Part shown: one piece after another, positions 5,361 to 55,281 of the stretch
Position numbering within the stretch: position 1 is the stretch's first letter
Layout: each line of letters starts with the position of its first letter
The notes under the pieces: generated by a model
The model's input: the letters and a program-made list of their open reading frames with translations, nothing else
Databases searched by the model: none
Told to the model about the DNA's origin: nothing
Made by a program: the position numbers and the translations under genes
Source of the DNA: Octopus vulgaris
Lineage: Eukaryota
Length of the DNA: 64,000 nt
NCBI GenBank assembly: GCA_951406725.2
Contig: OX597815.1
Location: 39,184,001-39,248,000, forward strand
Direction: 5' to 3'

Positions 5361-5594
5361 TACATAGGTTTGTAAAGTTTAGATATTTCCTCATTACCAA
5401 CAAACTGTGAAATGATGGAAACAGCATTTATTTTAAGTTGGACTGATTTAAGCATGCACAATGAACATTTAATCAAGAGACAATCCTTTGACTGTAGTAA
5501 ATTTGGAAAAGGTTGTTGTATATGACTGTAGTTCAGCAACTAAAACTCAATGTAAACTTCAATTTACTTAAGTGATGTAAATAAAGCAACTTAC

Positions 5595-5725
5595 TGTGCT
5601 ATGTCAGTAAAGCCACATGAAGCTGTAGCATGAAGAGGTGTCCAACCTTCATTATCACAGACATCAACATCAGCACCATTATCAACAAGAAACTTCACCA
5701 TGTCAATTTTGTCATCAATACATGC
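5595..5725 (-). CDS. PPP1R12A: Internal coding exon (ankyrin repeats) of myosin phosphatase targeting subunit, PPP1R12/MYPT1/Mbs family
   Basis: Minus strand reads tttcag|GCATGT...GCACA|gtaagt with canonical splice sites, 131 bp, phase 0 to phase 2. Translation ACIDDKIDMVKFLVDNGADVDVCDNEGWTPLHATASCGFTDIA closely resembles MYPT1/Drosophila Mbs (ACIDD..DMV.FLV..GA.....DNEGW.PLHA.ASCG). Missed by the ORF track. The A/B/C paralog label is nominal for an invertebrate. Confidence 0.92.
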
Positions 5726-5789
5726 CTGAAATTAGAAAAAATTAAAAGCATTTAATATTAATAAGCACACACATGCACATTTATATATT

Positions 5790-9325: not shown

Positions 9326-10755
9326 CGAAGAGTAGCTTCAAAATATGGTCTTTCCAAATTTACATAGCACTGTGGAAACAAACTGCAAGGTATTATTATT
9401 GTTCATGTTGACTTCAACTTTGCAAGTTCAAAGAACTTTCAGAGCCGAGTCAGACAGGCATAATAAATTACTTCCAGTTTGGATTAGATATTAAAAAGAA
9501 TGGGGAGGGTATAAAACTTGGGACAAGGTAATTATCTAAAGCAATTAAAATATATATACAGCAATGGAAAATAAGTTGAAAAGATAAAGATATCAACAAC
9601 AGAGATTACAGAAATTAAGTGAAAGGTCAACTAAATTGATTAGTTACAGAAACAAGACTAGAGTTTAGTTATAATGTTGGGATGAAGTTCCTTTCTAAAA
9701 CAGGAAGGTACAGAGTATATTAGATAAGTTAATAATACAGTAAATAAAGCAAAGGGAAAAAATCTCAAATAGTTATTCAAGAATTAGCAAATCTTGATTG
9801 TTTACCAATATTTGCATAGTGATGCCTTTTACCTCATTAATCAACAAGATAGGGTATTACAAGGAAACTCCATTACCTTTGTGGTTAATGACAAATAATT
9901 TTATGCCCATTGATTGGCAAAATAAAGGCATTAGAATTGTCAAAAGTACCCAGTTGTACAGTTGCAGAAACTTTGGCAATGGTTAATATGGTGGAAGTGC
10001 GTTTTTATATATAGATAGATTAGAGAGAGGGAGAGAGAGAGAGAGAGAGAGAGAACTTAGTGGGACTAAAACAGACTGAGGATAACACTGGAAATATAAA
10101 AACTTAAAAGTGATAAGTAAACAAAATTGCAAAAATTTCGATTCCAACAGATTACAAATTGCTAACTCACACACACACACACACACAGAAAAGGAATTAT
10201 CTTTTAAGATTCTTGGATTCATAACAGGGGCCTAAAGACCATTAAGTGTAATTGTTCAAGCTACATTTTCTCTTGTTCTTTTGCAGCCAAAAACTTGGTG
10301 TTAGCATTAAGCCACAGCTGCAAGGCATCCAATAAAGACAGGAAAAAAACCAAAAAAAAAAACACGGAAATATTGTTAATAATTGAAGGGAGACAATTCA
10401 TCCCTAATTACCATCCCAAGAGAAATAAGAAGGGACTTGGATGCAGAGGCAGGAACATTTGTTGATAAGTCAATTCCCTTACTGCTTTCTTCTATGTCTA
10501 AAAGTGCTGTTATCTTATATTTAACATTTACTATCAAAGGAACTGAAGTCAGTAGGACTAGTGAAGCACTTATAAATTTTACAGTCCAGCCAGTTTAGAA
10601 CAATGAACTACATCACACCATGGTATCCACATACATATTTAAGAGTTAAATAAAAGTAGTCAAAGTTTACAAACTGCTAACCACTAAGATACCAATATCT
10701 TTTCATAACTTGACCACTCACACTCCAAACTTAGAAAACATCCACACAAACATAC

Positions 10756-11645
10756 TATTAGGTTGTCAAGAAAGTTCTTGCAGAATTTTTAATTTTAGTT
10801 TTAAATTATATATTTTCAAATTAATTTTCATAAAATTATTTTGACTTTATATATCATTTTAAAGCCCGTTTTTCGCTCTATCTAATCGTGTTACATTTTT
10901 TCTTTTTGAATAATTAGGCCATTTTTTGAAGAACGTGGACAAAAAGCAAATTTGCACAATTTTCTTATGTTCAAGCTAGGCCGAAAAGCTATTGAAACAG
11001 CTTGCAATATCAACAATGTATTTGGCCCAGGAACCATTAATGTATGTACAGCACAATGGTGGTTCAAGAAATTTCATAGCGGGGACGAGAGTCTTGAAGA
11101 TGAGAAGCGTAGTGGTTAGCCATCGGATGTTGGCAACGATCAACTAAGAGCCTTAGTAGAAGCCAATCCATACACAACTGAGAGCTTATTTCTGAATTAG
11201 ACGTAACATATACAACAATTTCCAACCACTCGAGAGATTGGAAAAACAAAAATACTTGAGAAATGGGTGCTGCACAAATTGAACAACAACCAAAAAAAAC
11301 GCTGTTTTGAAGTGTCATCTTCCCTCCTTTTACGCAACAAGAATGACCCGTTTCTTGACCAGATTGTGACTTGCAATGAAAAGTGCAATCTTTACGATAA
11401 GGCTCAGCACAGTGGTTGGTTTTGCACTTCCATAAGCCAAAATTGCACCAAAAGAAGGTCATAGTGACTATTCATCCCTAATTATCCATCACAGCTTTTT
11501 GGATCCAGGTGAAACCATTACAGCAGAGAAGTACTGTCAGCAAATGGATGAAATGCATAAGAAACTCCAACAATAACAGCCAGCATTGGTCAACAGAAAA
11601 GGACCAATTCTTCTCCACGTCAACGCTCAGCCACACATCGCACTC
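10756..11645 (+). mobile_element. mariner (Hsmar1/SETMAR-like) transposon, 3'-truncated pseudogene
   Basis: TA followed by ttaggttg terminal repeat start. Degenerate transposase with AQWWFKKFHSGDESLEDE, KWVLHKL (WVPHEL), FLDQIVTCNEK (TCDEKW), GETITAEKYCQQMDEM and GPILLHVNAQPH (HDNARPH). Confidence 0.9.
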
Positions 11646-11900
11646 AATTTCATAAGCATACGCAATTTCATTTTTACCAAATAATTTAGGAAAATTAATG
11701 GGTTATTTCCCTTGGCTATATATAAGGATCCCTTCCAGGGGCTCTATTATCGATTTGTTCAACAATCTGAGTATGCCATGAGGTTTCTAGACATGAGGTC
11801 TCACATATCAAGTTTCATCAAAATCGATAAAACGATGTAGGAGGAGTTAGCTAACAACTCCACAAACGCACCCACAGACAGAATATCCCACATCTATATA
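11646..11900 (-). mobile_element. Possible non-autonomous Helitron-type fragment truncating the mariner
   Basis: aagtttcatcaaaatcg...ggaggagttag...cacagacaga layout parallels the end of the 13141-13650 element; the termini are degraded. Confidence 0.4.
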
Positions 11901-13681: not shown

Positions 13682-13985
13682 TTTTACTTGTTTCAGTCAT
13701 TAGACTGCGGCCATACTGGAGTAGCACCCCGACGATCTTTAGTCAAATGAATTCCAAGTTAAGTGGGTGTAAACAAATTAACACAAATTGTCAATCGGTG
13801 GCGAGAGACAAACACAAAGACACACACACATGACAAGCTTCTTTCAGTTTCTGCCTATCAAATCCACTCACAAGGATTTGGTCAACCCAAGGCTATAGAA
13901 GACACTTACCAGAGGTGCCATGCAGTGGGACTTGACCAAGAACCATGTGGTTGGGAAGCAAACTTCTTACTACACAGCCATGCCT
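13682..13985 (-). mobile_element. SINE family 1 copy with internal deletion
   Basis: tgtttcagtcattagactgcggccat...aaatccactcacaagg...ttactacacagcca, colinear with 2937-3348. Confidence 0.8.
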
Positions 13986-14240
13986 GTGCACACACACACA
14001 CACATTTTATTGACAGTTACTTCAAAGTCCCACCAGTAGTTGGCCTCATTAGTCACAGTCAATACAATTATAAATATCAGATTACAGTTAGTGAGGCCTT
14101 AGTTCAGTAAATGCTCACAATTTTCATAATTATAAAAACCTCCATATATAAATACATGTATACTTACATACCATTGTAAACACACTGACTGGTTTTTATA
14201 TATGACAATTATTTAGAGCATGTTCGTGAAAATAAAAAGG

Positions 14241-14356
14241 TAGATAGGTAGGCAGAATTTGTAAGTGCCTGTGTACATACAAATTCTGCCTACCTATCTA
14301 TGTGAATGAGTGAGCATATAAGTGCCTGTGTACATATATGCTCACTCATTCACATA
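14241..14356. repeat. Twin perfect inverted repeats sharing an identical 14-nt loop
   Basis: Arms 14241-14263/14278-14300 (23 bp) and 14299-14320/14335-14356 (22 bp); both loops are agtgcctgtgtaca. Confidence 0.95.
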
Positions 14357-17054
14357 ATCAACCACTATAACTTACTAAATATGTGGTGCTGTGCCACAAC
14401 ATATACATATATGGATCTATTATTGCTCATGCCACAATAAAATGCATCCAGTACACTTTGTAAAGTCACTGGAGATAGGAATGGTATCCAATCATAGAAA
14501 CCAAACCAAAACTGAAACATTTAAGCAAGATGTGGTCCTTCAATCTGCTGAGGAGTATCCTAATTGTACACAAGGACTCCAACTTGACAATCTGTTCAAT
14601 TCATGTCAGCACAGAAAGTATATGTCAAAAAATAAGGTGGATGATCTATTATTGATAGAAGTAGTTATGTAGTGTGTATGTAGATAGGCAGCTGAAGGAA
14701 TCTTGAATCAAAGTTAGTGAAACCTTGGCATTTTACATTCAATAGTTTTGTGACCAGGTTATGATGATAGACATCTCCAGTCATTTATGGGATAGACATG
14801 ACTGGCTATCTAGAAGGTTGATAGAAAGTTAAATAGGTAGAGAAAGAGGTTTGATAAATAGAGAAAGGAGAAAGAGAGAGATTTAAAAACAATGATAAAC
14901 ATTTTTGCATTCAATGTTTTAAAGAGAACACACTCCAGTGATAGCCACTGTGTTAGACAAAGAAATAGACAGGACACTGCCATGAAAACAGGGTTCTAAC
15001 CCCAAATTAGGAAGAAGTTATGAAAACAAGAAATTTAGAAAAAGAGACAATGACACTACAGTTGTTAGCTCAAGAATTGTTTATCAGCAGAAATGTTTAG
15101 TCGTTCAAATGAAAGCTAACATAAGTTGATCTAAGTATCATTTCTGTTTAATTCACACTATTTGAATTCATCCAGGTGACTTAGTAAAGTTGTTGCTTGC
15201 TTGCAACACAATTTTAAAAGAATGGTTACCATTTTCCCAAGTGTTCAATCATATTAGTGAGAAAACAAGTTAATGACTCCATGAATTTAATATTATCCCT
15301 AACAATATTCATACTTTCATTGTTCATCATCATCATCATTTAACATCCCTTTCCCATACAGACAGGAGTTAGACAATGTGACAGAATCCAGCAAGCTGTC
15401 AAGCTTCAGTGTCAGCTTTCACATGTTTTCTAAAGCTGGACACCCTTCCTAACACCAACTATTTTAGTGTGCACTGGGTTTTTTTATATATATATATTTT
15501 TTTTTTTTTTTTTGCATTCTATTGAGCCAATGGCACTGGGGAGGTCACCAAGTGAGTTGCAAAACAGAAAAAGAATGAGAAAAGGAAAAATATCATAAAT
15601 TTGTACATCTTTCCTTGCATATTTCACTCTTGCTTTACTTTTTTTTTTTTGTCCCACATTATTTCTTAAACAGATGTATAATTGGGCTGATAGATATGTG
15701 GCTGTTATTTTTAGCAAGAAGATGTTGAAACATCTAACATAAAAAAATTGTAAAATATACATTATAGAATGTGACACACTCTCCATATATATATCTTGCA
15801 CATACACATACATAGAGACATATGGATATGCCCTAGTTTTCTCCTCTTCTCTATTACTCATGCATTCTATCTCTCTTCTACATAGGATAGACTTTATTAT
15901 CTTTTCACTTTGTTTTTTTTTTTAGTCACTCCTTTTTTTCTATTTGTTCCCAAGTTCCATTTTCCTTAATATCTGTATCCACAGTCATTTTATTTCCAAT
16001 GATAATAGGAGTGGATTTCTTTTAAATTATGTAGCTACTATTTCTAGGATATATGGTGATGAATAACAAAAGTATTTTATTAACAACTGAAATGTATAGT
16101 TCTAATATCAATTGTGGAACATGAAATGTGGAATGACGTGTAAGGTGGAAAGATTGTATATTGAACATGATCAATATAAACTGCAAATAGGTGGAAATTG
16201 CAGCTGATTTCTTTAGATACTTCATAAAGAAAAAGCAGGGAGTGGGAGGTGTCAAAAGACATACTAAAAAAGTTTTACACACACAAACATGCATTTATAG
16301 ATATGTTCACTCACATTACACATGTAAACACAATCACATACACACATATCCAAATTCATGTGCATACACAGACATACACAAGTCTGCATGTGTTAGAGAT
16401 GGTGGGGTATCATTTAAGCTTTTAGTTTAGCCAGCAACACTGTTTTTGGGTTTTTACCACTGTCATAGAAGTGGCAGTAGTAAGATATCCTTTGCAGGTC
16501 TCCTACATGGAGGCATACATTTATACACATAGAGAAAGACAATCACATATATACCAGGCAGACAAGCAACTGAAGTGACTCAAACTATAATATTTACATG
16601 CAAGAGAGAGGGAGGGGGAATGTGCGTATGTTTGTTTACACACATACATACATATGAAAAATTTTGATGATAAACTTATATTTTTCCTTTTAGCTTTTTT
16701 ACCCATGGCATCAGACTCTTGTATGTTTGTATGTATTCTAAAAGCAAGCTGGGTGCACATACACATGGTATTCTTGTGTAGATTCATAAGGATTTTCCTG
16801 TATGTTCCACATGCTATGACTTGCCATACATTTAAATTTCCTTCAGCGTGGAATCTGTTATAGCCCTATATCAACTAAATGTTACTTCATACCAATGTAG
16901 CACAATATTAATTAACAGTTTGTTTATAGATATGGAAATATGAAGTATTTAATAAATACAACTGTAACTAGTCAAACATAAGACCCGTACTCCATGGCAG
17001 AAGTTTGAAAATTGATCCCTCGGGTGGTGTAAAGCACTCATGGCAGAACTACGT

Positions 17055-17676: not shown

Positions 17677-18150
17677 TCATCATTTAACGTCCGCTTTCCA
17701 TGCTAGCATGGGTTGGACGGTTCAACTGGGGTCTGGGGAGCCCGAAAGCTGCACCAGTCCAGTCAGATCTGGCAGTGTTTCTACAGCTGGATGCCCTTCC
17801 TAACGCCAACCACTCCGAGAGTGTAGTGGGTGATTTTATGTGCCACCGACACAGGTGCCAGACGAGGCTGGCAAACGGCCACGCTCGGATGGTGTTTTTT
17901 ATGTGCCACCGACACAGGTGCCAGACGAGGCTGGCAGACGGCCACGCTCGGATGGTGTTTTTATGTGCCACCGACACAGGTGCCAGATGAGGCTGGCAAA
18001 CGGCCACGATCGGATGGTGCTTGTTACGTGCCCACAGCACGGAGGCCAGTCGATGCGGTACTGGCTACGGCCACGTTCGGATGGTTTTCTTGTGCCACGT
18101 GCCACCGGCACTGGTACCACAAAGATACAAATTCCATTGATGTTCATCTT
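17677..18150 (-). mobile_element. RTE LINE 3' end with tandem array of 62-63 bp units
   Basis: Reverse complement of the RTE tail (gcggacgttaaatgatg). Three near-identical units start at 17838, 17901 and 17963, followed by degenerate units. Confidence 0.85.
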
Positions 18151-19600: not shown

Positions 19601-19859
19601 AAAAAAAATTGATATGATAGAAAATTTCTAAACCCAGCACCATTAAATTAAGTAGGACTATTTGTAAAAAGCAAGACAACTAAATATTTTTTTTTTAAAT
19701 GTTCCTCCATGTTATAAAATAATGAAAGCAGCTGACCAGCCCTATTACTTATGAAAAAACAACACAATTGTACTTATTCAGAGATTAAGTTGTAGAAAAA
19801 AAAACCTGATGTGATAGTTGAAAATTGACTGCAGTTTTGAAATCAGCATGACAAATTTT

Positions 19860-21338
19860 AAATACCTAGCCAAAGATAAATCTCTGTACCTGGCTTTCGT
19901 TGACATGGAGAAAGCCTTTGACAGGGTCCCCCAATCCCTTATCTGGTGGTCAATGAGGAAACTAGGGATAGAGGAATGGTTAGTGAGAGCTGTGCAAGCC
20001 ATGTACAGGGACACCGTCAGTAAGGTGAGGGTTTGCTGCAAGTACAGTGAAGAATTCCAAGTAGAGGTAGGGTCCACCAAAGTTCAGTCCTCAGCCCTCT
20101 CCTATTTATCATAGTCTTCCAGACAATAACAGAGAAATTCAAGACAGGATGCCCCTGGGAGCTCCTCTATGCTGACGACCTTGCTCTAATTGCTGAGTCA
20201 TTATCAGAACTAGAGGAGAAGTTTCAGGTGTAGAAACAAGGATTAGAATCGAAGAGCCTTAGAGTCAACCTAGCTAAAACCAAAGTCCTAATAAGTAGGA
20301 AGGCAGACAAACCACAAATTTCTTCAGGTAGATGGCCCTGCTCGATCTGTAGAAAAGGTGTAGGTAGAAACTCTATAAGATGTGCCCAGTGTAAGCTATG
20401 GAGACATAAGAGGTGCAACAACATCAAAGGAAGGCTAACTGGGAAGATAGTTTTTGTATGTGGCAGATGCTCAGGGCAATAAACAGAGAGTTCAGAGAGC
20501 TCTTACCTCTACAAGTGACAAAGGGCATCTCGCTCAGAGTAAAAGGTAGACTGTATGACGCATGTGTATGAACAGCCATGCTACATGGCAGTGAAACATG
20601 GGCCATGACTGCTGAGGATATGCGTAAGCTCACAAGGAATGGAGCCAGTATGCTCCGATGGTTGTGTAATGTCAGTGTGCATACTCAACAGAGTGTAAGT
20701 ACTTTGAGAGAAAAGTTGGACCTAAGAAGCATCAGATGTGGTGTGCAAGAGAGACGACTGCGCTGGTATGGTCATGTGGCGAGAACCAGCCCACTTATAG
20801 GTACCTTTCCTACATTGAACACTAAACTCTGTTTGCGAAGACCTGTTGAGACAAGCGAAATCAAAATCAAAGCAAATTTTCAAATTTGATGACTGGCACC
20901 CATGCCAGTAGAGCGCTGACAGCACCATCCAAGTGTGATCGCTGCCAGAGCAGCTGACTGGCTTCTGTGCCGGTGGCACGTAAAAAGCACCATTCAAACA
21001 TGGTCATTAGTAGCGTCGCCTTACTGGCACGTGAAAAACATTCGAGCAAGGTCGTTGCCAGTGCCGCTGGACTGGCTCCTGTGCAGGTGGCATGTAAAAA
21101 ACACTTGAGCGTGGCCATTGCCAGTACCAACTGACTGGCCTCAGTTGGTACTGGCAATGGTGCATGTAAAAGCACCCACTACACTATTGGAGTGGGCGGC
21201 GTTAGGAAGGGCATCCAGCTGTAGAAACTCTGCCAGGTTAGATTAGAACCTGGTGAAGCCATCTGGTTCGCCAGTACTCAGTCAGATTGTCCAACCTATG
21301 CTAGCATAGAAAGCGGACGTTAAACGATGATAATGGTG
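19860..21338 (+). mobile_element. 5'-truncated RTE-clade LINE (RT, PHD-like insert, 3' tandem array, (GAT)n tail)
   Basis: LYLAFVDMEKAFDRVP, WELLYADDL, LHGSETW and RLRWYGHV motifs; carries stops and internal deletions relative to 53838-55281. Confidence 0.92.
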
Positions 21339-27526: not shown

Positions 27527-30028
27527 GTAACCCTTTAGTGTTCAGATTAATTTGTCTGTTCACATTAATTTTGATTTCTTCAGGTTCAAGTGGGGTGTCC
27601 ACAATATTTGCTTGTAACTTTGTTAATTTTCAACATAACAGATTTGAAAGTTTGTAAATGGGTGCTTATATATACCAGTGGTTTATAGTTACGTAATTTT
27701 AGCTGATCTGATTAAATTTGACTTTTATGGCCAGGTAATTTTAATTAACAGGTCTAAAAACAATAACATAATGAATAAACACTAAAATTCATATTTTCAA
27801 TACATCTCCCGTTTGATTTGTTACTAAAATTATTCCAGATGTCAACCAGCAACAATTTCACATTTTTCAAGGTGAGGTACATTAATTTGAATTAATTAAA
27901 ATACAAGTGTAATTAGTACAAGATTTTATTCTTTCTCTATATTTCATTGACATTTTCATTGAAAATATAGTACAAAACCCTTACTAGTCAATATACCATT
28001 GGCTATGCACTCTTATACAATTCAATGAATTCATTTATGTAACAGAAAGCACCTAACAAAAAAAGCTCGTTAATAGGTGAAGCAAAGGAGAATATAGATG
28101 TGTAACATACTGAAAATTAATATGTATTTCTCACTTTCACATATTATTTATAATAAAATAATATAGTTATGACATATTTCTGTCATGAAACTGCCTAAAG
28201 TACCCATTACACAAGGGCACTTTGCAAAAGGAACACATATACGAAGTCTCAATCTGATACTCTTTCACAGTTTTTCTTTCTTGCAGCGAACACAGTGTTG
28301 CAAACGTTTTTTTCTTCCATTTATCTTTTCAACTTTATGAAAGTTAATATTTTCTCTGTTGACATCCATGTCATGTGAATTTTGCTTTTCTCCCAGTTCT
28401 GTGCTTTCTTGAAGAAAAGCCCTCACAAAACTGAGATGCGATGTCAATTCGTCAAATGGTCATAGTCGTGGCTTTTTACATGTACAGTATATGAATTACT
28501 ATAGCTAAATTAACTAAAAACTACTAAATGAACCTCCATTTCTTCCTAAGTCGTCCAACTGGGTAATATGCCCGATATTGGTCAGATTTATCAACCCCAC
28601 CCATATATTTGTTATAACAAATATTCACCTGGGGTTTCCCCTCAGCACCAACTCTAGGTTGTTCATTAGTAGACAGAAATAAAATCTGTCTTTTGTCTTT
28701 GAAAGCAGTAGCTAATAAAGTTTCCTTTTGCATTTGTAATATGTCCTCTTTTTTTTCATATTTTGTTTTCATTTCACAGGGTACACCTTTACAGTTGCCC
28801 ATAACAGTGCTACACATGTAAGTACTTACAAGGGCAAGATTTTCAGCTGAAGCCACTGAAGAAAAAAAAGTCAAAATAGAGGTGTCAGTGCTGATCGTGA
28901 ACTGGTTCAGTAAGAGACTTTACTACATCATGTCCCAATCTTATATGGTTTGTTTCCATTATATCTTTTACCTGTGTAAATATCGAAGTTTACACAATTT
29001 CTAGTGTCTGATTCACAAACTTCCCATACCTTCATCCCCCATTTAGTGGGTTTGGCAGGCATGTACTGCCAAAAATGTACTCTGCCCTTATAGCCTATCA
29101 TGGCTTCATCTACACTGAGATTTTTCCCAGGTAGATACAGTTTTATAACTATTAAGGAGTAAACTACAGGACGTACTTTGTACAGGAGATTGTAGTTTGG
29201 GTCATTTTTGCATTAGCAGAATCAATTAAATGTAAATACTGAGGTATTTTCGAATACCTCCTCTTCAACATTATACTTGAGATATACAGATCACCATACC
29301 TTATATCAGAACTCCAGTAGTTCTACAATGGAGGAAGCTGTTTAACACCAAACATAATATTGAATGTGAAAAACGCTCTCATTTCCACAGTATAAGTTGG
29401 CTGCTATAGTGGATCATTTCTTCCGCAAATAGAAATTATACATTGCACATACTTGTTTTCAAAAATACTTTCTAGTAAAAAATAAAAATAGATAGTCCAA
29501 TGGTTGAGGAGGAAAAATTGTGTTGTGGACCAGTGTTTTCAGTGAAATCAGGAATAGTGATAGGTGCTGTAATCTTTGACCATGTTGCTATGTTTATGAT
29601 ATCATTTTACATCACTTTCATTTTTATCACTTTCGTTCTCAAAATCTTCCTCGTCCGACAAATATTCACTAATATCGATACCAAATTCATCCAAAGACAA
29701 AATACTCATGTTTCCATCTATATTTTCTATATCATCAAGAGTAAAACCTTCAAAGTTGGAATCGCTACTTGCTGATGCCATTTCATTAAAAACTAAGGTA
29801 AAGACATCGATTCAAACATTGAGAAAACCATGTGGTCTAACAATTTCACAGTATTTATACTTGAATAAAGGCAGGAAAGGGCTTCATCTCGCATTATCTC
29901 AAAGCTACAAGAATTTAATAACTTGGTTTGTTTATTTTTTTTAGCAATTTCGTAGAGCAGCCGGATTTGGCCAGTTTGAACAAATAAAAGGGAATTAATT
30001 TTGGACGGTCTGAACGCTAAATGGTTAA
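27527..30028 (-). mobile_element. Full-length but inactivated piggyBac (PGBD4-like) transposon
   Basis: TIRs (g)taa-ccctttagtgttcaga and tctgaacgctaaatgg-ttaa. Minus-strand transposase from ~29780 has an acidic N-terminus, SVDEAMIGYKGR..QYMPAKPTKWGMKVW, YNKYMGGVDKSDQ and a C-terminal Cys-rich region (CVRC...CSFCKVPLC), with several stops and frameshifts. Confidence 0.92.
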
Positions 30029-41630: not shown

Positions 41631-42427
41631 ATTTTAAACATGATAGTAATTTTATAATCAAAATCAAATGGAGTTTTTAAAATTGATTGCCTAAAAGGAA
41701 AACTGTAGCAAAGTAAATTAAAAACCATTAAAAACACACCAATAAGGTCAATAAAAAAAGGTAAAATTTGAATATCAAGTTACCTTTTAGACAAAAAAGC
41801 AATTCCAGCAAATGGAAAAAAGGTAAAGGGCATATATATCAGTCATAATCATAACTGATTAGTTTATGCCAAAAATTAGATTTGAAGACAACAGACTTTA
41901 AAGTATTAAGACAGTTTGTACTTATATAGGCCAATCAGTAAACAAATATTTTACAGTTCTAAAGTTCAAAATCTTTCAGATAATATTCCATTATTCAGAT
42001 ATTTAAATAATACAAGTACCATTATTATACACTTTACAAATATATATATACATTATATATATATGTGTGTGTGTGTGTGTGTTTAAGAAAAATAGGAAAA
42101 GAAAATGTGTTATTCCTTTTACAGAACATAACTGCAATGTAAAGGAAAAGCACATTTTCTTTTATTATTTGAGATATATAAAATAGTGTCTTCTACTATA
42201 GCCCAGGGCTGGGCTTACCAATATGTGTGAGTGTGAGTACATTTGGGTATCCTTGCCTTGACACTGTGATAGTTGTAAATGAGTGACACAGTCTGGCCAT
42301 GGGGGAATATTAGCATGTTTAGAAACAGCTGAGGGTTGGTGACAGGAAGGGCATCCGGTTGTTGAATATTTATCTCAAACTGTCTAACCAATGCAAGCAT
42401 GAGGCAGTGGACATTAAAATGATGAGT

Positions 42428-42670: not shown

Positions 42671-45600
42671 CATTTTTATTTTTATTCCTGAATGAATAAA
42701 TACAGTTAATCTAGGTAGCAAAAAAGAAAAAAAGTTTCTTCCTTTATTTTTTTAATGGCATTATGGGATGGTCTTTGCAAATTTCTATATAATTAAACAC
42801 CCAAGCAGGAAAGTGGTTGCACTCACTTTTCATGCATAGAAATTATGGCAAATTTTAACGATAGATATACATTCTAAGCCATACAGACAATATCCAGCTC
42901 AAGGTGAATAAGACTACAAATGATAAAACAGATTGTGTAAACTGACAGCGTACAAACGGAAAAACTGCCTTTATTGCTTTCTAAGCTAAAATTGCTTTTT
43001 AGCCAAACTTCTGGAAAAATTTTTTTTACCAAATAAACAGCTCAAAACTGAAACAATGACCAAGCAAATTATTTTTCATTGACATGAATATCCCAGATCA
43101 CCAACAAATTCTATATAGGCAGGAAATTTATGCACAGATCAATGATGCAGATATTTGTAACTGACATTGTTATTCCACACTTCATCTAAATTCAGTTACA
43201 AATAATAATTTTGCTACATTGGTATACAAAACTCTTAACTGAAATGGAAACTCTTTAGTTTGAAAACCTTTTCCTCACATTTTTTTTAATGTATTTTGGA
43301 AATTATTTAAGCTACCAATGTTATTTACCTGGGAATCAGAAGATAGAAGTCGTAGTCAAAAGCAATTAAAATCTACTAGACTACCAAAAGTGGCAATTTG
43401 TTTTTCTAAGTCAACTGAATTTTATTTAGATAGACATAAATGAAAAGATTACAAGTGCCCATACAATTCTTTACTCAGCAAGACAGAATTACTCCTACAT
43501 AAATGAGATTCTGCAGAACATTTTAAAATTTCCAAAAAATTTTACTTGGATCAAATTGCGTACCAAATTGTCTGGCAAACTTTCTGACATGAAGAGAAAT
43601 CATGCTTAGTGTAGTGTGTGTATGCGTGTGTGCGTGCGTACAAGTTTGGATGCCAGCCCATTAAGGCACAACTCTAAAAAGGAAATATAGAAAAAATAAA
43701 TAATAACCCAAACAATGGTACTTCTATCTTCCTAGAAGAAGCAAATGGTGACGAAGAAAGAAGCTCTTTATTAAAATGACTCAGAATGTGTGTGTGTGAG
43801 GTCAGCACAAAACTTTATGTATATTGGTTGATGAACGGCCAAGTGTCAAACTGTATTCAAGTAAACCAATGCTTATCGCAAAAAAACAAAGACGAAACTA
43901 TAAATTTTGTATCACTCCGGTTGATTAAAAAGAAAAATTTTGTAAAGAACAGAAATTTTGAGTAATTATTGTATACATATCTATCATCAAGAAACATTCA
44001 AGCTGGACTGACTTCTAGGTGAGAGTAAGCTCCAATAACCTATTTATATAGTGTCAGAAACACTGCACTATTTTCTTTCTCGCTCTTCCTTCTACCAATG
44101 GCCAAATCATTAGGAATCAAAAGAAAAACTGTCTTCAAAGCAAAGCATGGTTTCTATTTTGAACCTCATAGCAATTATCTCATCATAGCACTGAACAAGA
44201 GGATTTGTGTGGGCCTAAACTTAAATTCAACAGTCATAAACAAAAATAAGATTCAAGAAGCAGTTTGAAAGCACTTTTATCCTTAGAACATCTAACCACT
44301 GAAATATGAAATCAGACATTGCGTATTTCCTACAAGATATATGTCAATTCTCTCAATTGAATTCTACATTAAAACATTAAATGCCACTAGTCCAAAGCTG
44401 AAACTACTAACAGCTAAAGCATAGCACTGAACCTCGAGTCATATAACAGATTATATATAGTTAAGACAATTTGAAATTTGAAAGGGGGCATGAAGAATTT
44501 ATTCTTTACAAAGACATTTCTCGTGTAGCTTTCTCATTGAAAATATAGTAGTCTGCAGCATGTTTAAATTACTGTTATATATTAGCTACCATTTTATATT
44601 TTGAGTAAACAGAAATTGCATGTGAAGGTGGATTTTGTGATAGCATTCAACATTGGCTATTTTCACTGAATGTTTTTGAGATGCTATAAAACATGCTAAG
44701 TCCTACAACAGAGAACTAAATAACTTCGGCAAGATGATTAAATGAGAAACCACTAGAAATCCTAATAAATGAACAGTCAAATTCCTTCACCTCCCTACCT
44801 ACCATTTTACAAAGAGATGGAAAAGCTCCATGAGCACAACAAAAGCCAAACAAATCTGTTAATCATGAAATAGGTCAACATTTCTCAATTGAAAATCTTT
44901 ATAAAGGAACTGGAGAACAAAATAAAAGTGATTTGAAGCAGTGTGTATGTGGAAATAATTGAGGATCAGTGTCAGGTAGAGTATCCTGCCATAGAAAATC
45001 TTCCTCAAAGAATCTCATCTGACCCATGCATGTGTGGAAAAGTATACTTTAAAATGATATAGTATCTATATGATGTGAGAAAGGGAATAACTTGGATAGG
45101 TTTTGGCCAGTATAGGCACAGGCCATGTATAACTTAATAGCACCACCTGATAGTCTTTTAGTCATATATGGGGCACCATGGCCTCACCTCAAAATAACAG
45201 ATTGCAAGCCCTATGAGTAGGTGGGGTTTTTTTTAATATTATTTGAAAGTTTATGAAGGTATAATATTTAATTTCATTTATAATTATAAAAAAAAAAAAA
45301 AACTGTAGCTGTTAACTTGTAACTCACACATACACACACATTCCTGAGTTACACTTGTCTAGCAATTGATTTCATCAAGAGATTGCATCATGGTAGTGTC
45401 ATAAAATAGTCATTTAAAACACAACATATACATAGTGGTTTGTATTTTATTACTATCTTGTGTTAAACAGAATTTGAAATGTCTTGTATTCACCTATGAT
45501 CTGATCACTAAAAGTCTACAGTAGCTAAGATTATAAACATACAACTGCTGATATGTTGCTATATTACCAAACAGATGAACTACAATGTAAGTTGGAAATT

Positions 45601-51903: not shown

Positions 51904-52596
51904 GGATAGCTGTGTGGAAAAGTGCCACACTCTATCAACTGAGGGAACCTGCGGAAGAGGTAGACCCAAGAAGACCTGGGATGAGGTGGTGAAGCACAAC
52001 CTTCGAACATAAGGCCTCACCGAGGAAATGACTAGTGACCGAGACCTTTGGAAATATGCAGTGCATGAGAAGACCCAGCAAGCCAAGTGAGACCATAACC
52101 CATGGCCTATGCCAGGAGTGTAACCAGCCCGCTTATGCGTACCTTTCTTTCATTGGACACTAAACTATGCTTGCGAAGATCTGTTGAGGCAAGTGAAATC
52201 GAAAATGAATCAAATTCAATGACTGGCACTCGCGTCAAGGGAGCACTAAGAGCACCATCTGAGCGTGATCATTGCCAAAGCAGCTGACTGGCTTCCGTGC
52301 CAGTGGCACGTACAAAAAACATTCAAGTGAGGTCGTTACCAGTGCCACTGGACTGGCACCTGTACAGGTGGCATGTAAAAAACACCATTTGAGCCACCTG
52401 ACTGGCCCTCGTGCCTGTGGCACGTAAAAGCACCCACTACACTCTCGGAGTGATTGGCATTAGGAAGGGCATCCAGCAGAAGAAATTCTGCCAGATCAGA
52501 CTGGAGCCTGGTGCAACCATCTGGTTCGCCAATCCTCAGTCAAATCATCCAACCCATGCTAGCATTGAAAGCGGACGTTAAACAATGATGATGATG
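51904..52596 (+). mobile_element. RTE LINE 3' portion with tandem array and (ATG)n tail
   Basis: EGTCGRGRPKKTWDEVVK..DRDLWKYAV; the 3' UTR is colinear with 20785-21338. Confidence 0.9.
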
Positions 52597-53128: not shown

Positions 53129-53647
53129 AGCTGAAATAAGTAGAATTAATATGATCAAATGAAAAAAACTCAAAGATTGCACGCTAGCATGACTACAGCA
53201 TAACAACTGAAACCAATGACAATAAAACACACACAGAAATATAAATGTTATAAGAGCTACAGCTTTGAATTCTCTTTCATATAGGTCATCTCCTCTAAAT
53301 CAACTAGGTAGCTTTAGAAGAAATTCAGCTAGTCAAATTATATACTCTATACAAATTATTTCATATTTAGCTAATATCTCGGCTCATATTTAATGTGGAA
53401 TATTGAATAATCTGTCAGTGTTATTTTAAAAGGATTACAGCTATTTACAGAATGAGGTGTTTTCTATTTCAGTTCTAGAAGGTGGGGCAACTAATGTATC
53501 TCCTTACTATGTTTAAATTGATGCCACAACAATTTTCAAATATCACAAAGAGTCCTTGACTCATCTGGTCAGTAAGAACTAAAATAAAAGATAAGAAAAT
53601 AAAAATATACTAAAATGTTAACGTCAATATTTTTTTAAGGATCTCTC

Positions 53648-53685
<38 letters not shown>

Positions 53686-53837
53686 GTATCATATACTCAC
53701 ATGTGTATATACATACATATATGTATACCATCATTTACCATCTATTCTCCATGTATGAGCACATGTGTCTTTCTATATTTCATGCATTAACTCAAAAGCT
53801 TCAAGATCTTGATGAAATGATCATACATTTTTTACAA

Positions 53838-55281
53838 TGTGAAGAATTCTGGGTAGGGGTCCACCAAAGATCAGTTCTCAGCCCCCTCTTATTCATCATA
53901 GACCTCCAGGCAATAACAGAGGAATTCAAGACAGAATGCCCCTGGGAGCTTCTCTATGCTGACAACCTTGCTCTAATAGCTGAGTAACTATCAAAACCAG
54001 AGGAGAAGTTTCAGGTGTGGAAGCAAGATCTAGAATCGATGGGCCTTAGAGTCTCAACCTAGCTAAAACCAAAGTCCTAATAAGTAGGAAGGCAGGCAAA
54101 CTACAAATCCCTTCAGGTAGATGGCCCTGCTTGATTTGTAGAAAAGACATAGGTAGAAACTCCATAAGATGTACCTGGTGTAAGCTATGGACACACAAGA
54201 AGTGCAGCAATATCAAAAGAAGGCTAACTAGGAAGATAGTTTTTGTGTGTGGCAAATGCTCAGGGTCAATAAGCACTGAAAATGTGCAGAAAACAGCTTC
54301 TATCACATGCCAGTGAGAAAAACTAGAAGCAGTTGATAGCTTTCGATACCTAAGTGACCAAGTCAGTAGCAGGGGTGGATGCTCTGAGAGTGTAGTTGCT
54401 AGAAGAATAGCCTGGGCAAAGTTCAGAGAGCTCTTACCTCTGCTGGTGACAAAGGGCCTCTCGCCCAGAATAAAAGGTAGACTGTATGACATGTGTGTGT
54501 GAACAGCCATGCTATATGGCAGTGAAACATAGGCCATGACTGCTGAGGAATGAAGCCAGCATGCCCCGCTGGATGTGTAATGTCTATGTGCATACATAAC
54601 AATGTAAACACCCTGAGAGAAAAGCTGGACATAAGAAACATCAGATGTGGTGTGCAAGAGAGACAATTGCACTGGTATGGTCATGGATGAAGACAGCTGT
54701 GTGAAAAAGTATCACACACTAGCAGTAGAGGGAACCTGTGGAAGAGGTAGATCCACAAAGACCTGGGATGAGGTGGTGAAGTACAACTTTCAAATGTTGG
54801 GCCTCACAGAGGCAATGACAAGTGACCAAGACATTTGGAAAGATGCTGTGCTTGAGACCATAACTGTGGCCTATGTCAGTGCAGTATAACCGGCCCATTT
54901 AAGAGTACCCTTGAATCACTGGGTTGCACTTGCAAAGACCTGTTGAGTCAAGTGAAGTCATTGTCATGGCTGATGACAGTACCACCTGATTGGCACCTGT
55001 GCTGGTGGCACTTAAAAAGCACCATTCAAGCATGGTTGATGCCAGTGCCAACTGACTGGTCCCATGCCAGTATCACGTAAAAAGCACCATTCATGTGTGG
55101 TCGATGCCAGTACCGCCTGACTGGCCTGCGTGCCAGTGGTACATAAAAAGCACCCACTACACTACACTCAGATCAGATTGCCGGATCAGACTGGAGACTG
55201 GTGCAGCCTTTTGGCATGCTAGGCCTCAGTCAAACTGTCCAACCCATGCCAGCATGGAAAGCAACGGTTGATGATGACGAC
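53838..55281 (+). mobile_element. 5'-truncated RTE-clade LINE
   Basis: VGVHQRSVLSPLLF, WELLYADNL, PHD-like Cys cluster, FRYLSD, EGTCGRGR, 3' tandem array and (GAT)n tail. Confidence 0.92.

What the first reader, a model, noticed from the sequence alone, without database searches (positions are those of the whole stretch)
14241..14356. Twin perfect hairpins with different stems but an identical loop (A-L-A'-B-L-B')
Seen: tagataggtaggcagaatttgta-[agtgcctgtgtaca]-tacaaattctgcctacctatcta overlaps by 'ta' with tatgtgaatgagtgagcatata-[agtgcctgtgtaca]-tatatgctcactcattcacata. Both stems are mismatch-free (23 and 22 bp) and unrelated to each other, and the loop lies in an 18-nt direct repeat (14262-14279, 14319-14336). 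Inference 1: an ancestral A-L-B' locus was cut in a staggered way, leaving 14-18 nt 3' overhangs (LINE TSD size). Each end folded back and copied its own flank, and the two extensions joined at a TA microhomology. That would be a symmetric double snap-back repair scar, resembling polymerase-theta templated insertion or an aborted retrotransposition. Inference 2: transcribed within the intron, it forms two ~60-nt pre-miRNA/shRNA-sized hairpins, so such scars could seed new small RNAs or ADAR substrates in an editing-rich lineage.
Basis: partly seen in the sequence, partly recalled or inferred. Interest (0 to 1): 0.8.

Follow-up and report, generated by a model that had tools for sequence, protein, structure and literature searches.

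The report
Two-sided fold-back scar in octopus intron
Two perfect back-to-back DNA hairpins in an octopus intron are real, a related octopus has the same spot without the 57 extra bases, and they are most likely the scar of one broken-DNA repair in which both ends folded back and copied their own neighbours; no function is shown.

Summary
It lies in a >58-kb intron of octopus PPP1R12A/MYPT1. I laid 4 of 24 listed public runs. Three (organism labels B, C, D) carry the whole structure in one contig at a single locus. The most divergent (E) joins across, skipping exactly 57 nt: the predicted A-L-B' allele. So it is neither an artefact nor a dispersed transposon. No single template switch yields it (best 13 mismatches in 39 nt). 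Most likely mechanism (0.6): a staggered break left the 14-18-nt repeat on both ends, each end folded back, copied about 20 nt of its flank, and the two joined at TA. Multi-jump replication switching gives the same letters. One-sided versions are published (yeast; L1 breaks); I found no paper on the symmetric two-sided form. An unchecked earlier scan note reports twin hairpins with a shared loop in another animal genome. A small-RNA role is untested; the stems are short for Drosha.

The parts
14241..14263 (+). Arm A: original left flank, template of the first inverted copy
   Evidence: covered by the contig of organism E; organism D has T>C at 14249
14262..14279 (+). First copy of the 18-nt direct repeat (TA + 14-nt loop L + TA); weak quasi-palindrome
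14278..14300 (+). Arm A': perfect inverted copy of A; 21 nt (14280-14300) are new relative to the empty allele
14299..14300 (.). TA shared by A' and B: the 2-nt microhomology at the inferred joint
14299..14320 (+). Arm B: perfect inverted copy of the right flank B'; 20 nt (14299-14318) are new
14319..14336 (+). Second copy of the 18-nt direct repeat (target-site-duplication-like)
14335..14356 (+). Arm B': original right flank
14268..14324 (.). The 57 nt absent from the contig of organism E (the joint may slide 12 nt to the right)
   Evidence: table 5
5594..5731 (-). Open frame holding coding exon 2 (about aa 83-126) of the host gene PPP1R12A/MYPT1; the finding lies 8.5 kb upstream in the preceding intron, whose 5' exon is outside the window
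21115..21160 (+). Separate one-sided perfect hairpin (20-bp arms, 6-nt loop) inside a repeat unit; paralogous units lack the right arm; likely an independent fold-back scar

Best explanation
The element is a 57-nt insertion made only of an 18-nt duplicated target and inverted copies of both immediate flanks, and it likely arose in one germline repair event in which both ends of a staggered break folded back and primed on themselves. Shown: the anatomy; the empty allele in the most divergent relative laid; a single locus; two separate templated pieces are needed. Inferred steps: (1) opposite-strand nicks 14-18 nt apart left the repeat on both ends; (2) each 3' end paired its terminal TA (helped by a further GT/AC pair after one mismatch) with the other end of the same repeat; (3) a polymerase (Pol theta-like or Pol delta, not resolved) copied 21 and 20 nt of the adjacent flank; (4) the new 3' tails, both ending in TA, annealed, were filled in and ligated. 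The allele is present in organisms A-D and is probably neutral intronic sequence.
For: Empty allele with exactly 57 nt missing and no letters between in X15. B, C and D carry the full form at one locus, with flat depth over 14192-14431. The 39-nt core is wholly reverse-complement copies of 14241-14261 and 14337-14356. The best single four-point template switch leaves 13 mismatches in 39 nt and the best forward copy 20. The double fold-back route rebuilds the window exactly with a TA join. Both hairpins use the same spacer, and the copied tracts are nearly equal (21 and 20 nt), which fits one symmetric event. Each step has a published one-sided precedent: 5-34-bp fold-back inverted duplications at yeast breaks, joined with a median 2-bp microhomology (PMC11724301); L1-made staggered breaks with a kept target duplication plus an inverted duplication primed by a 2-bp TA/AT (10.1101/2024.12.14.628481); snap-back SD-MMEJ from short primer repeats (PMC5728401); small tandem duplications from 3'-overhang breaks (PMC8355091).
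Against: The same letters result from a tandem duplication plus inversion or from several template switches; '4 before 1' switches that create direct repeats are common in apes (PMC7954356). The 18-mer does not fold as DNA on either strand (0.0 kcal/mol). Its self-complementarity is only mildly unusual: 831 of 63,925 18-mers, but 831 of 5,059 (16%) given the two terminal pairs, and 13.7% of positions at some length of 17-30. Polarity rests on one outgroup run; a precise deletion between the direct repeats in E is possible, and copy identity cannot date the event (P of 0 mismatches 0.13-0.38). Snap-back is a minor class of Pol theta inserts in worms (PMC5068794). No RNA-derived sequence or tail marks a retrotransposition.
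Confidence: 0.6

Rival explanations
1. Replication template switching without a two-ended break: either one nascent strand jumped three times (fold back on A, jump at TA onto B', return to the start of L), or two successive short template switches used the same weak quasi-palindrome.
For: Every jump has at least a 2-nt TA microhomology. Events with return point 4 before 1 give direct plus inverted repeats in apes (PMC7954356). Multi-switch and twice-hit hairpin loci are reported (10.1101/2023.04.19.537475). A one-sided hairpin of this kind sits 7 kb away.
Against: A single four-point switch fails. Three jumps, or two rare events at the identical spacer with near-equal tract lengths, are less parsimonious. 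No intermediate among the 4 runs laid.
Confidence: 0.24
2. A 57-nt tandem duplication of A-L-B' (TA microhomology) was followed by in-place inversion of the 43-nt B'-A segment between the quasi-inverted ends of the two L copies.
For: Rebuilds the window exactly. Small tandem duplications are the commonest short insertions (PMC8355091). In-place inversions by template switch are described (PMC5453318).
Against: Needs two independent events and exact inversion ends. No tandem-duplicated intermediate among the 4 runs laid.
Confidence: 0.08
3. Whatever its origin, the twin hairpin is now a selected intronic RNA element (young miRNA/siRNA source or ADAR substrate) in the PPP1R12A pre-mRNA.
For: On the gene-sense strand the two hairpins fold at -38.2 and -35.6 kcal/mol. 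Present in 4 organism labels (window plus B, C, D). The one arm change seen (14249, organism D) leaves a G-U pair on the sense strand. Template-switch hairpins have become miRNAs, and most octopus editing is intronic or in 3'UTRs.
Against: The stems are 22-23 bp and abut, against a ~35-bp preferred stem. No compensatory change at 14292, and the change rests on one contig of depth 4.87. Absent from E. Only 57 of 6,054 suitable primate template-switch hairpins are annotated miRNAs. All Rfam matches are far below gathering scores.
Confidence: 0.06
4. Assembly or library fold-back artefact, or a dispersed miniature transposon or DNA-transposon excision footprint.
For: Perfect hairpins are a classic artefact, and the insert is flanked by a target-site-like repeat.
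Against: Present in one piece in 3 independent runs, and no other contig covers it at >=80% identity in those runs. The loop occurs exactly only here in the window. The insert is a copy of its own flanks, so it cannot be a dispersed element. hAT-type footprints invert the terminal bases themselves (my own knowledge), whereas L is repeated in direct orientation.
Confidence: 0.02

Closest known systems
Local fold-back inverted duplications at DSBs in yeast (Yu et al., PMC11724301; abstract, passages and section 15 read)
   Same: A 3' end folds back on imperfect inverted microhomology, copies ~5-34 nt, unwinds, and is joined to the other end with ~2-nt microhomology; gives a perfect stem with a spacer.
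   Different: One end only, no target duplication, Pol delta plus NHEJ, 10-bp primer repeat. Here both ends carry a copy, share one spacer that is duplicated, and the primer is 2 nt plus a weak extension.
Inverted duplications at L1 ORF2p staggered breaks (10.1101/2024.12.14.628481; passages and section 9 read)
   Same: Target-site-like duplication kept; inverted duplication of the flank primed by a 2-bp TA/AT in a small hairpin.
   Different: There an L1 cDNA is inserted and only one end is remodelled. Here nothing foreign is inserted and both ends are folded back; no LINE role is shown.
SD-MMEJ / Pol theta snap-back templated insertions (PMC5728401, PMC4912351, PMC5068794; passages read)
   Same: In-cis snap-back from short inverted primer repeats, reverse-complement insert from the flank, microhomology join.
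   Different: Usually accompanied by deletion and one-sided; here no base is lost and the event is symmetric.
Short-range template-switch mutations, four-point model (PMC5453318, PMC7954356 passages; 10.1101/2023.04.19.537475 parts 1-3 of 4)
   Same: One-step birth of perfect hairpins from unstructured DNA; some become miRNAs; direct repeats arise when point 4 precedes 1.
   Different: One contiguous inverted tract per event. Their two-repeat type 3-1-4-2 inverts the spacer, whereas here two non-contiguous tracts and a directly repeated spacer are needed.
Small tandem duplications at 3'-overhang breaks (PMC8355091; passages read)
   Same: Duplication of the stretch between two opposite-strand nicks.
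   Different: Fill-in by CST-Pol alpha-primase, with no inverted flank copies described between the repeats in the passages seen.

Membership tests
Fold-back/snap-back templated insertion at a DSB | Insert is a reverse-complement copy of the immediate flank | tested here: met
   Both halves of the 39-nt core map to 14241-14261 and 14337-14356
Fold-back/snap-back templated insertion at a DSB | A pre-insertion allele exists | tested here: met
   X15 contig skips 57 nt with no letters between
Fold-back/snap-back templated insertion at a DSB | Inverted primer microhomology at the fold-back point and short microhomology at the final join | tested here: met
   TA/TA plus GT/AC in the 18-mer; TA at the A'/B join; weak, 16% of comparable 18-mers do as well
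Fold-back/snap-back templated insertion at a DSB | Made at a double-strand break by Pol theta or Pol delta | not testable with these tools
   Sequence alone cannot separate break repair from replication switching
Single four-point template-switch mutation | Derived allele = prefix + one contiguous inverted tract + suffix | tested here: not met
   Best solution 13 mismatches in 39 nt
Aborted LINE target-primed insertion | Target-site duplication of LINE size | tested here: met
   14-18-nt direct repeat; 4-15 bp overlaps in the L1 examples
Aborted LINE target-primed insertion | RNA-derived insert or tail, or endonuclease site at the nick | tested here: not met
   The insert is all flank-derived; the edges show no clear T-run/A site on the expected strands (L1 consensus recalled, octopus LINE specificity unknown)
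Dispersed transposon (MITE/SINE) | Multiple copies in the genome | tested here: not met
   Flat single-contig depth over 14192-14431 in X4, X5 and X8 at 80% likeness; self-BLAST of the window finds only self-inverted hits
microRNA gene | About 35-bp stem with single-stranded basal flanks | tested here: not met
   22-23-bp perfect stems that abut; preference quoted
microRNA gene | Match to a curated family | tested here: not met
   0 Rfam matches at gathering score; 39 sub-threshold matches, best 33.2 bits against 56
microRNA gene | Phased ~22-nt reads from both arms | not testable with these tools
Conserved structured RNA | Compensatory changes in the stems | tested here: inconclusive
   One arm change in 3 carriers (14249, organism D), uncompensated but G-U compatible on the sense strand

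The most novel reading that the evidence does not exclude
A-L-A'-B-L-B' is a recurrent, stereotyped germline mutation signature of animal genomes: a staggered break (possibly cut by a LINE endonuclease without retrotransposition) whose two ends both fold back and are joined tail to tail, creating two perfect hairpins with one shared loop in a single step. It would be invisible to four-point template-switch scans and countable genome-wide; in octopus, where this 64-kb window has two perfect-hairpin loci, it could supply raw material for new miRNAs and ADAR substrates.
Probability: 0.3. Interest if true: 0.65.

Novelty: new variant of a known kind. Interest (0 to 1): 0.4.

Why it matters
It is an unusually clean natural record of both ends of one break being extended in cis, with the before and after alleles in hand. 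The pattern is specific enough to be counted in any pair of related genomes, which would test whether symmetric fold-back repair of staggered breaks is a regular germline process and whether LINE endonucleases make such breaks. The origin of the many new octopus miRNAs is stated to be unknown (PMC9699675), so the birth rate of perfect intronic hairpins in this lineage is worth measuring. This single locus is probably neutral.

Tried and rejected
No whole genome is held, so recurrence could be scanned only in the window: 1 two-sided case among 138 direct-repeat pairs. No RNA holder was listed by the run search; this is no evidence on expression. A 26-nt stretch found 0 exact matches in metagenome contigs. 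Sequence look-up among earlier findings: nothing; place look-up: nothing. The likeness of L to the end of the SINE-like repeat at 13979-13992 (3 mismatches) was dropped: 14 other places in the window match with up to 3 mismatches. Cruciform extrusion at the empty site was dropped as trigger because the site barely folds as DNA (0 to -0.1 kcal/mol). ODIRA and hAT-footprint models were dropped because they predict different junction layouts (reasoning, own knowledge). The supplementary tables of PMC9699675 show no miRNA sequence sheet in their sheet list (part 1 of 3 read); its data zip and PDF were not opened, and bioRxiv supplements (Fig. S3 of the miRNA preprint on multi-switch cases) are closed and may hold a precedent. 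Searches for a printed two-sided precedent: searches returned 0 papers, 41 two unrelated, 49 three (two read in passages); others gave one-sided precedents. The library lacks most subscription papers. A Pfam scan of 17 window ORFs did not run and was not repeated.

Full report
Observation. A (14241-14263) and A' (14278-14300) are perfect reverse complements over 23 nt, B (14299-14320) and B' (14335-14356) over 22 nt, both around the same 14-nt loop, which lies in an 18-nt direct repeat spaced by 57 nt; A' and B share TA. Chance is excluded: about 1e-6 such arms are expected in the window, fold z-scores are -9.8 to -14.8, and four Markov controls gave at most one hairpin, of score 13. The loop occurs exactly only at these two places in the window.

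Context. The frame at 5594-5731 on the minus strand is 100% identical to PPP1R12A (MYPT1) of Octopus vulgaris and O. sinensis and 98% to O. bimaculoides. It is the only coding exon of that protein found in the window, so the element most likely lies in the preceding intron, over 58 kb long, 8.5 kb from the acceptor, and is transcribed from the minus strand. No Rfam family reaches its gathering score anywhere in the window; at relaxed threshold 39 weak matches appear around the element, as expected for any perfect hairpin.

Independent data. The run search listed 24 runs, 20 holding some of the stretch. I laid 4, one each of organism labels B, C, D and E, leaving out the three flagged as a possible source. 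X4, X5 and X8 each carry the stretch, twin hairpin included, in one contig, with flat depth over 14192-14431, so it is real and single-locus. They differ from the window by 1-2 listed substitutions and one shared 3-nt indel. X8 has T>C at 14249 in arm A with no change at its partner 14292 (a mismatch on the plus strand, G-U on the gene-sense strand; depth 4.87, so possibly an error). X15, the most divergent (6 listed substitutions and 3 indels in about 370 nt; up to 13 'other letters' counted), has one 1,142-nt contig of depth 19.8 that joins 14267 to 14325, skipping exactly 57 nt with nothing between. The joint can slide 12 rather than 18 nt, which suggests that E differs at 14267; the letter was not shown. 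By parsimony the 57 nt were gained after the split from E. With one outgroup a clean deletion between the direct repeats in E remains possible, and the identity of the copies cannot decide it (P 0.13-0.38). All four are short-read contigs; no long reads were seen.

Mechanism. The 39-nt core between the repeats is entirely the reverse complement of the 21 nt left of the repeat and of the 20 nt right of it, overlapping by TA. An exhaustive search for one four-point template switch leaves at best 13 mismatches in 39 nt, and a forward copy 20, so two templated tracts are required. A model in which both ends of a staggered break keep the repeat, fold back, extend and anneal at TA rebuilds the window exactly; so does a 57-nt tandem duplication followed by inversion of the middle 43 nt; by reasoning, so do three template jumps or two successive switches. 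I favour the one-break model (0.6) because it explains at once the duplicated spacer, the use of the same spacer by both hairpins, the near-equal tract lengths and the loss of no base. Against it, the 18-mer has no stable DNA fold on either strand, and its self-complementarity (5 of 7 outer pairs) is matched by 831 of 63,925 18-mers, or 16% of those with the same two terminal pairs; priming would need an enzyme that works from about 2 bp. Which polymerase acted and what made the nicks are not shown; nothing RNA-derived is inserted, so a LINE role is only a possibility.

Comparison with known work. One-sided versions are documented. Yeast breaks give 5-34-bp fold-back inverted duplications joined with a median 2-bp microhomology, by Pol delta and NHEJ (PMC11724301; abstract, passages, section 15). 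L1-made staggered breaks give inverted duplications primed by a 2-bp TA/AT while keeping the target duplication (10.1101/2024.12.14.628481; passages and section 9). Snap-back synthesis is part of SD-MMEJ and Pol theta repair (PMC5728401, PMC4912351, PMC5068794; passages), a minor class in worms. Small tandem duplications arise at 3'-overhang breaks (PMC8355091; passages). Template-switch scans in apes find hairpins and '4 before 1' direct repeats but model one tract per event (PMC5453318, PMC7954356; passages). Complex break-site inverted duplications also accompany telomeric insertions in horse (PMC7215372; passages). PMC10622511 was seen only in a search listing. My searches showed no paper on the symmetric two-sided form, but the library is incomplete and preprint supplements are closed.

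Function. On the sense strand the hairpins fold at -38.2 and -35.6 kcal/mol, but they are 22-23 bp and abut, against the ~35-bp stem preferred by the miRNA machinery, and only 57 of 6,054 suitable template-switch hairpins in the human lineage are annotated miRNAs (10.1101/2023.04.19.537475; parts 1-3 of 4 read). The octopus miRNA study kept only families present in two octopus species and says that their source is unknown (PMC9699675; passages, supplement list and part 1 of 3 of the tables; found by search; one search added nothing). Small-RNA or editing evidence could not be examined. I put a present function at about 0.06.

A second, one-sided perfect hairpin (20 bp) at 21115-21160 sits in a repeat unit whose paralogues in the window lack the right arm. 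Two such loci in 64 kb hint that fold-back events may be frequent here, but one window is no rate.

Verdict. Real, polarised by one relative, and best read as a probably neutral two-sided fold-back repair scar: a new variant of a known kind of mutation. Interest 0.4; about 0.65 if a genome-wide scan shows it to be a recurrent single-event signature (probability 0.3).

Noticed in passing
window 21115-21160: Perfect 20-bp hairpin with a 6-nt loop inside a ~65-nt repeat unit; paralogous units (55044-55164, 52341-52488, 17777-17936) lack the right arm, so likely an independent one-sided fold-back scar.
   Followed up: partly
window 42097-42163 and 43152-43204: Weaker inverted repeats (23-nt arms with 2 mismatches; 13-nt perfect arms); possibly older scars or chance.
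   Followed up: no
window 14066: All four runs laid have 3 extra letters here, so the window's lineage carries a private 3-nt deletion.
   Followed up: no
   Followed up: no
window 5732-64000: No further PPP1R12A coding exon found, so the intron before coding exon 2 exceeds 58 kb if the assembly is right.
   Followed up: partly
window 28170-29811 (-): Broken frames that look like a piggyBac-type transposase (recognised from memory; not scanned).
   Followed up: no
window 10750-11700, 19800-20800 and 53600-54700: Decayed mariner-like and LINE reverse-transcriptase-like remnants (recognised from translations and the sequence; not scanned).
   Followed up: no
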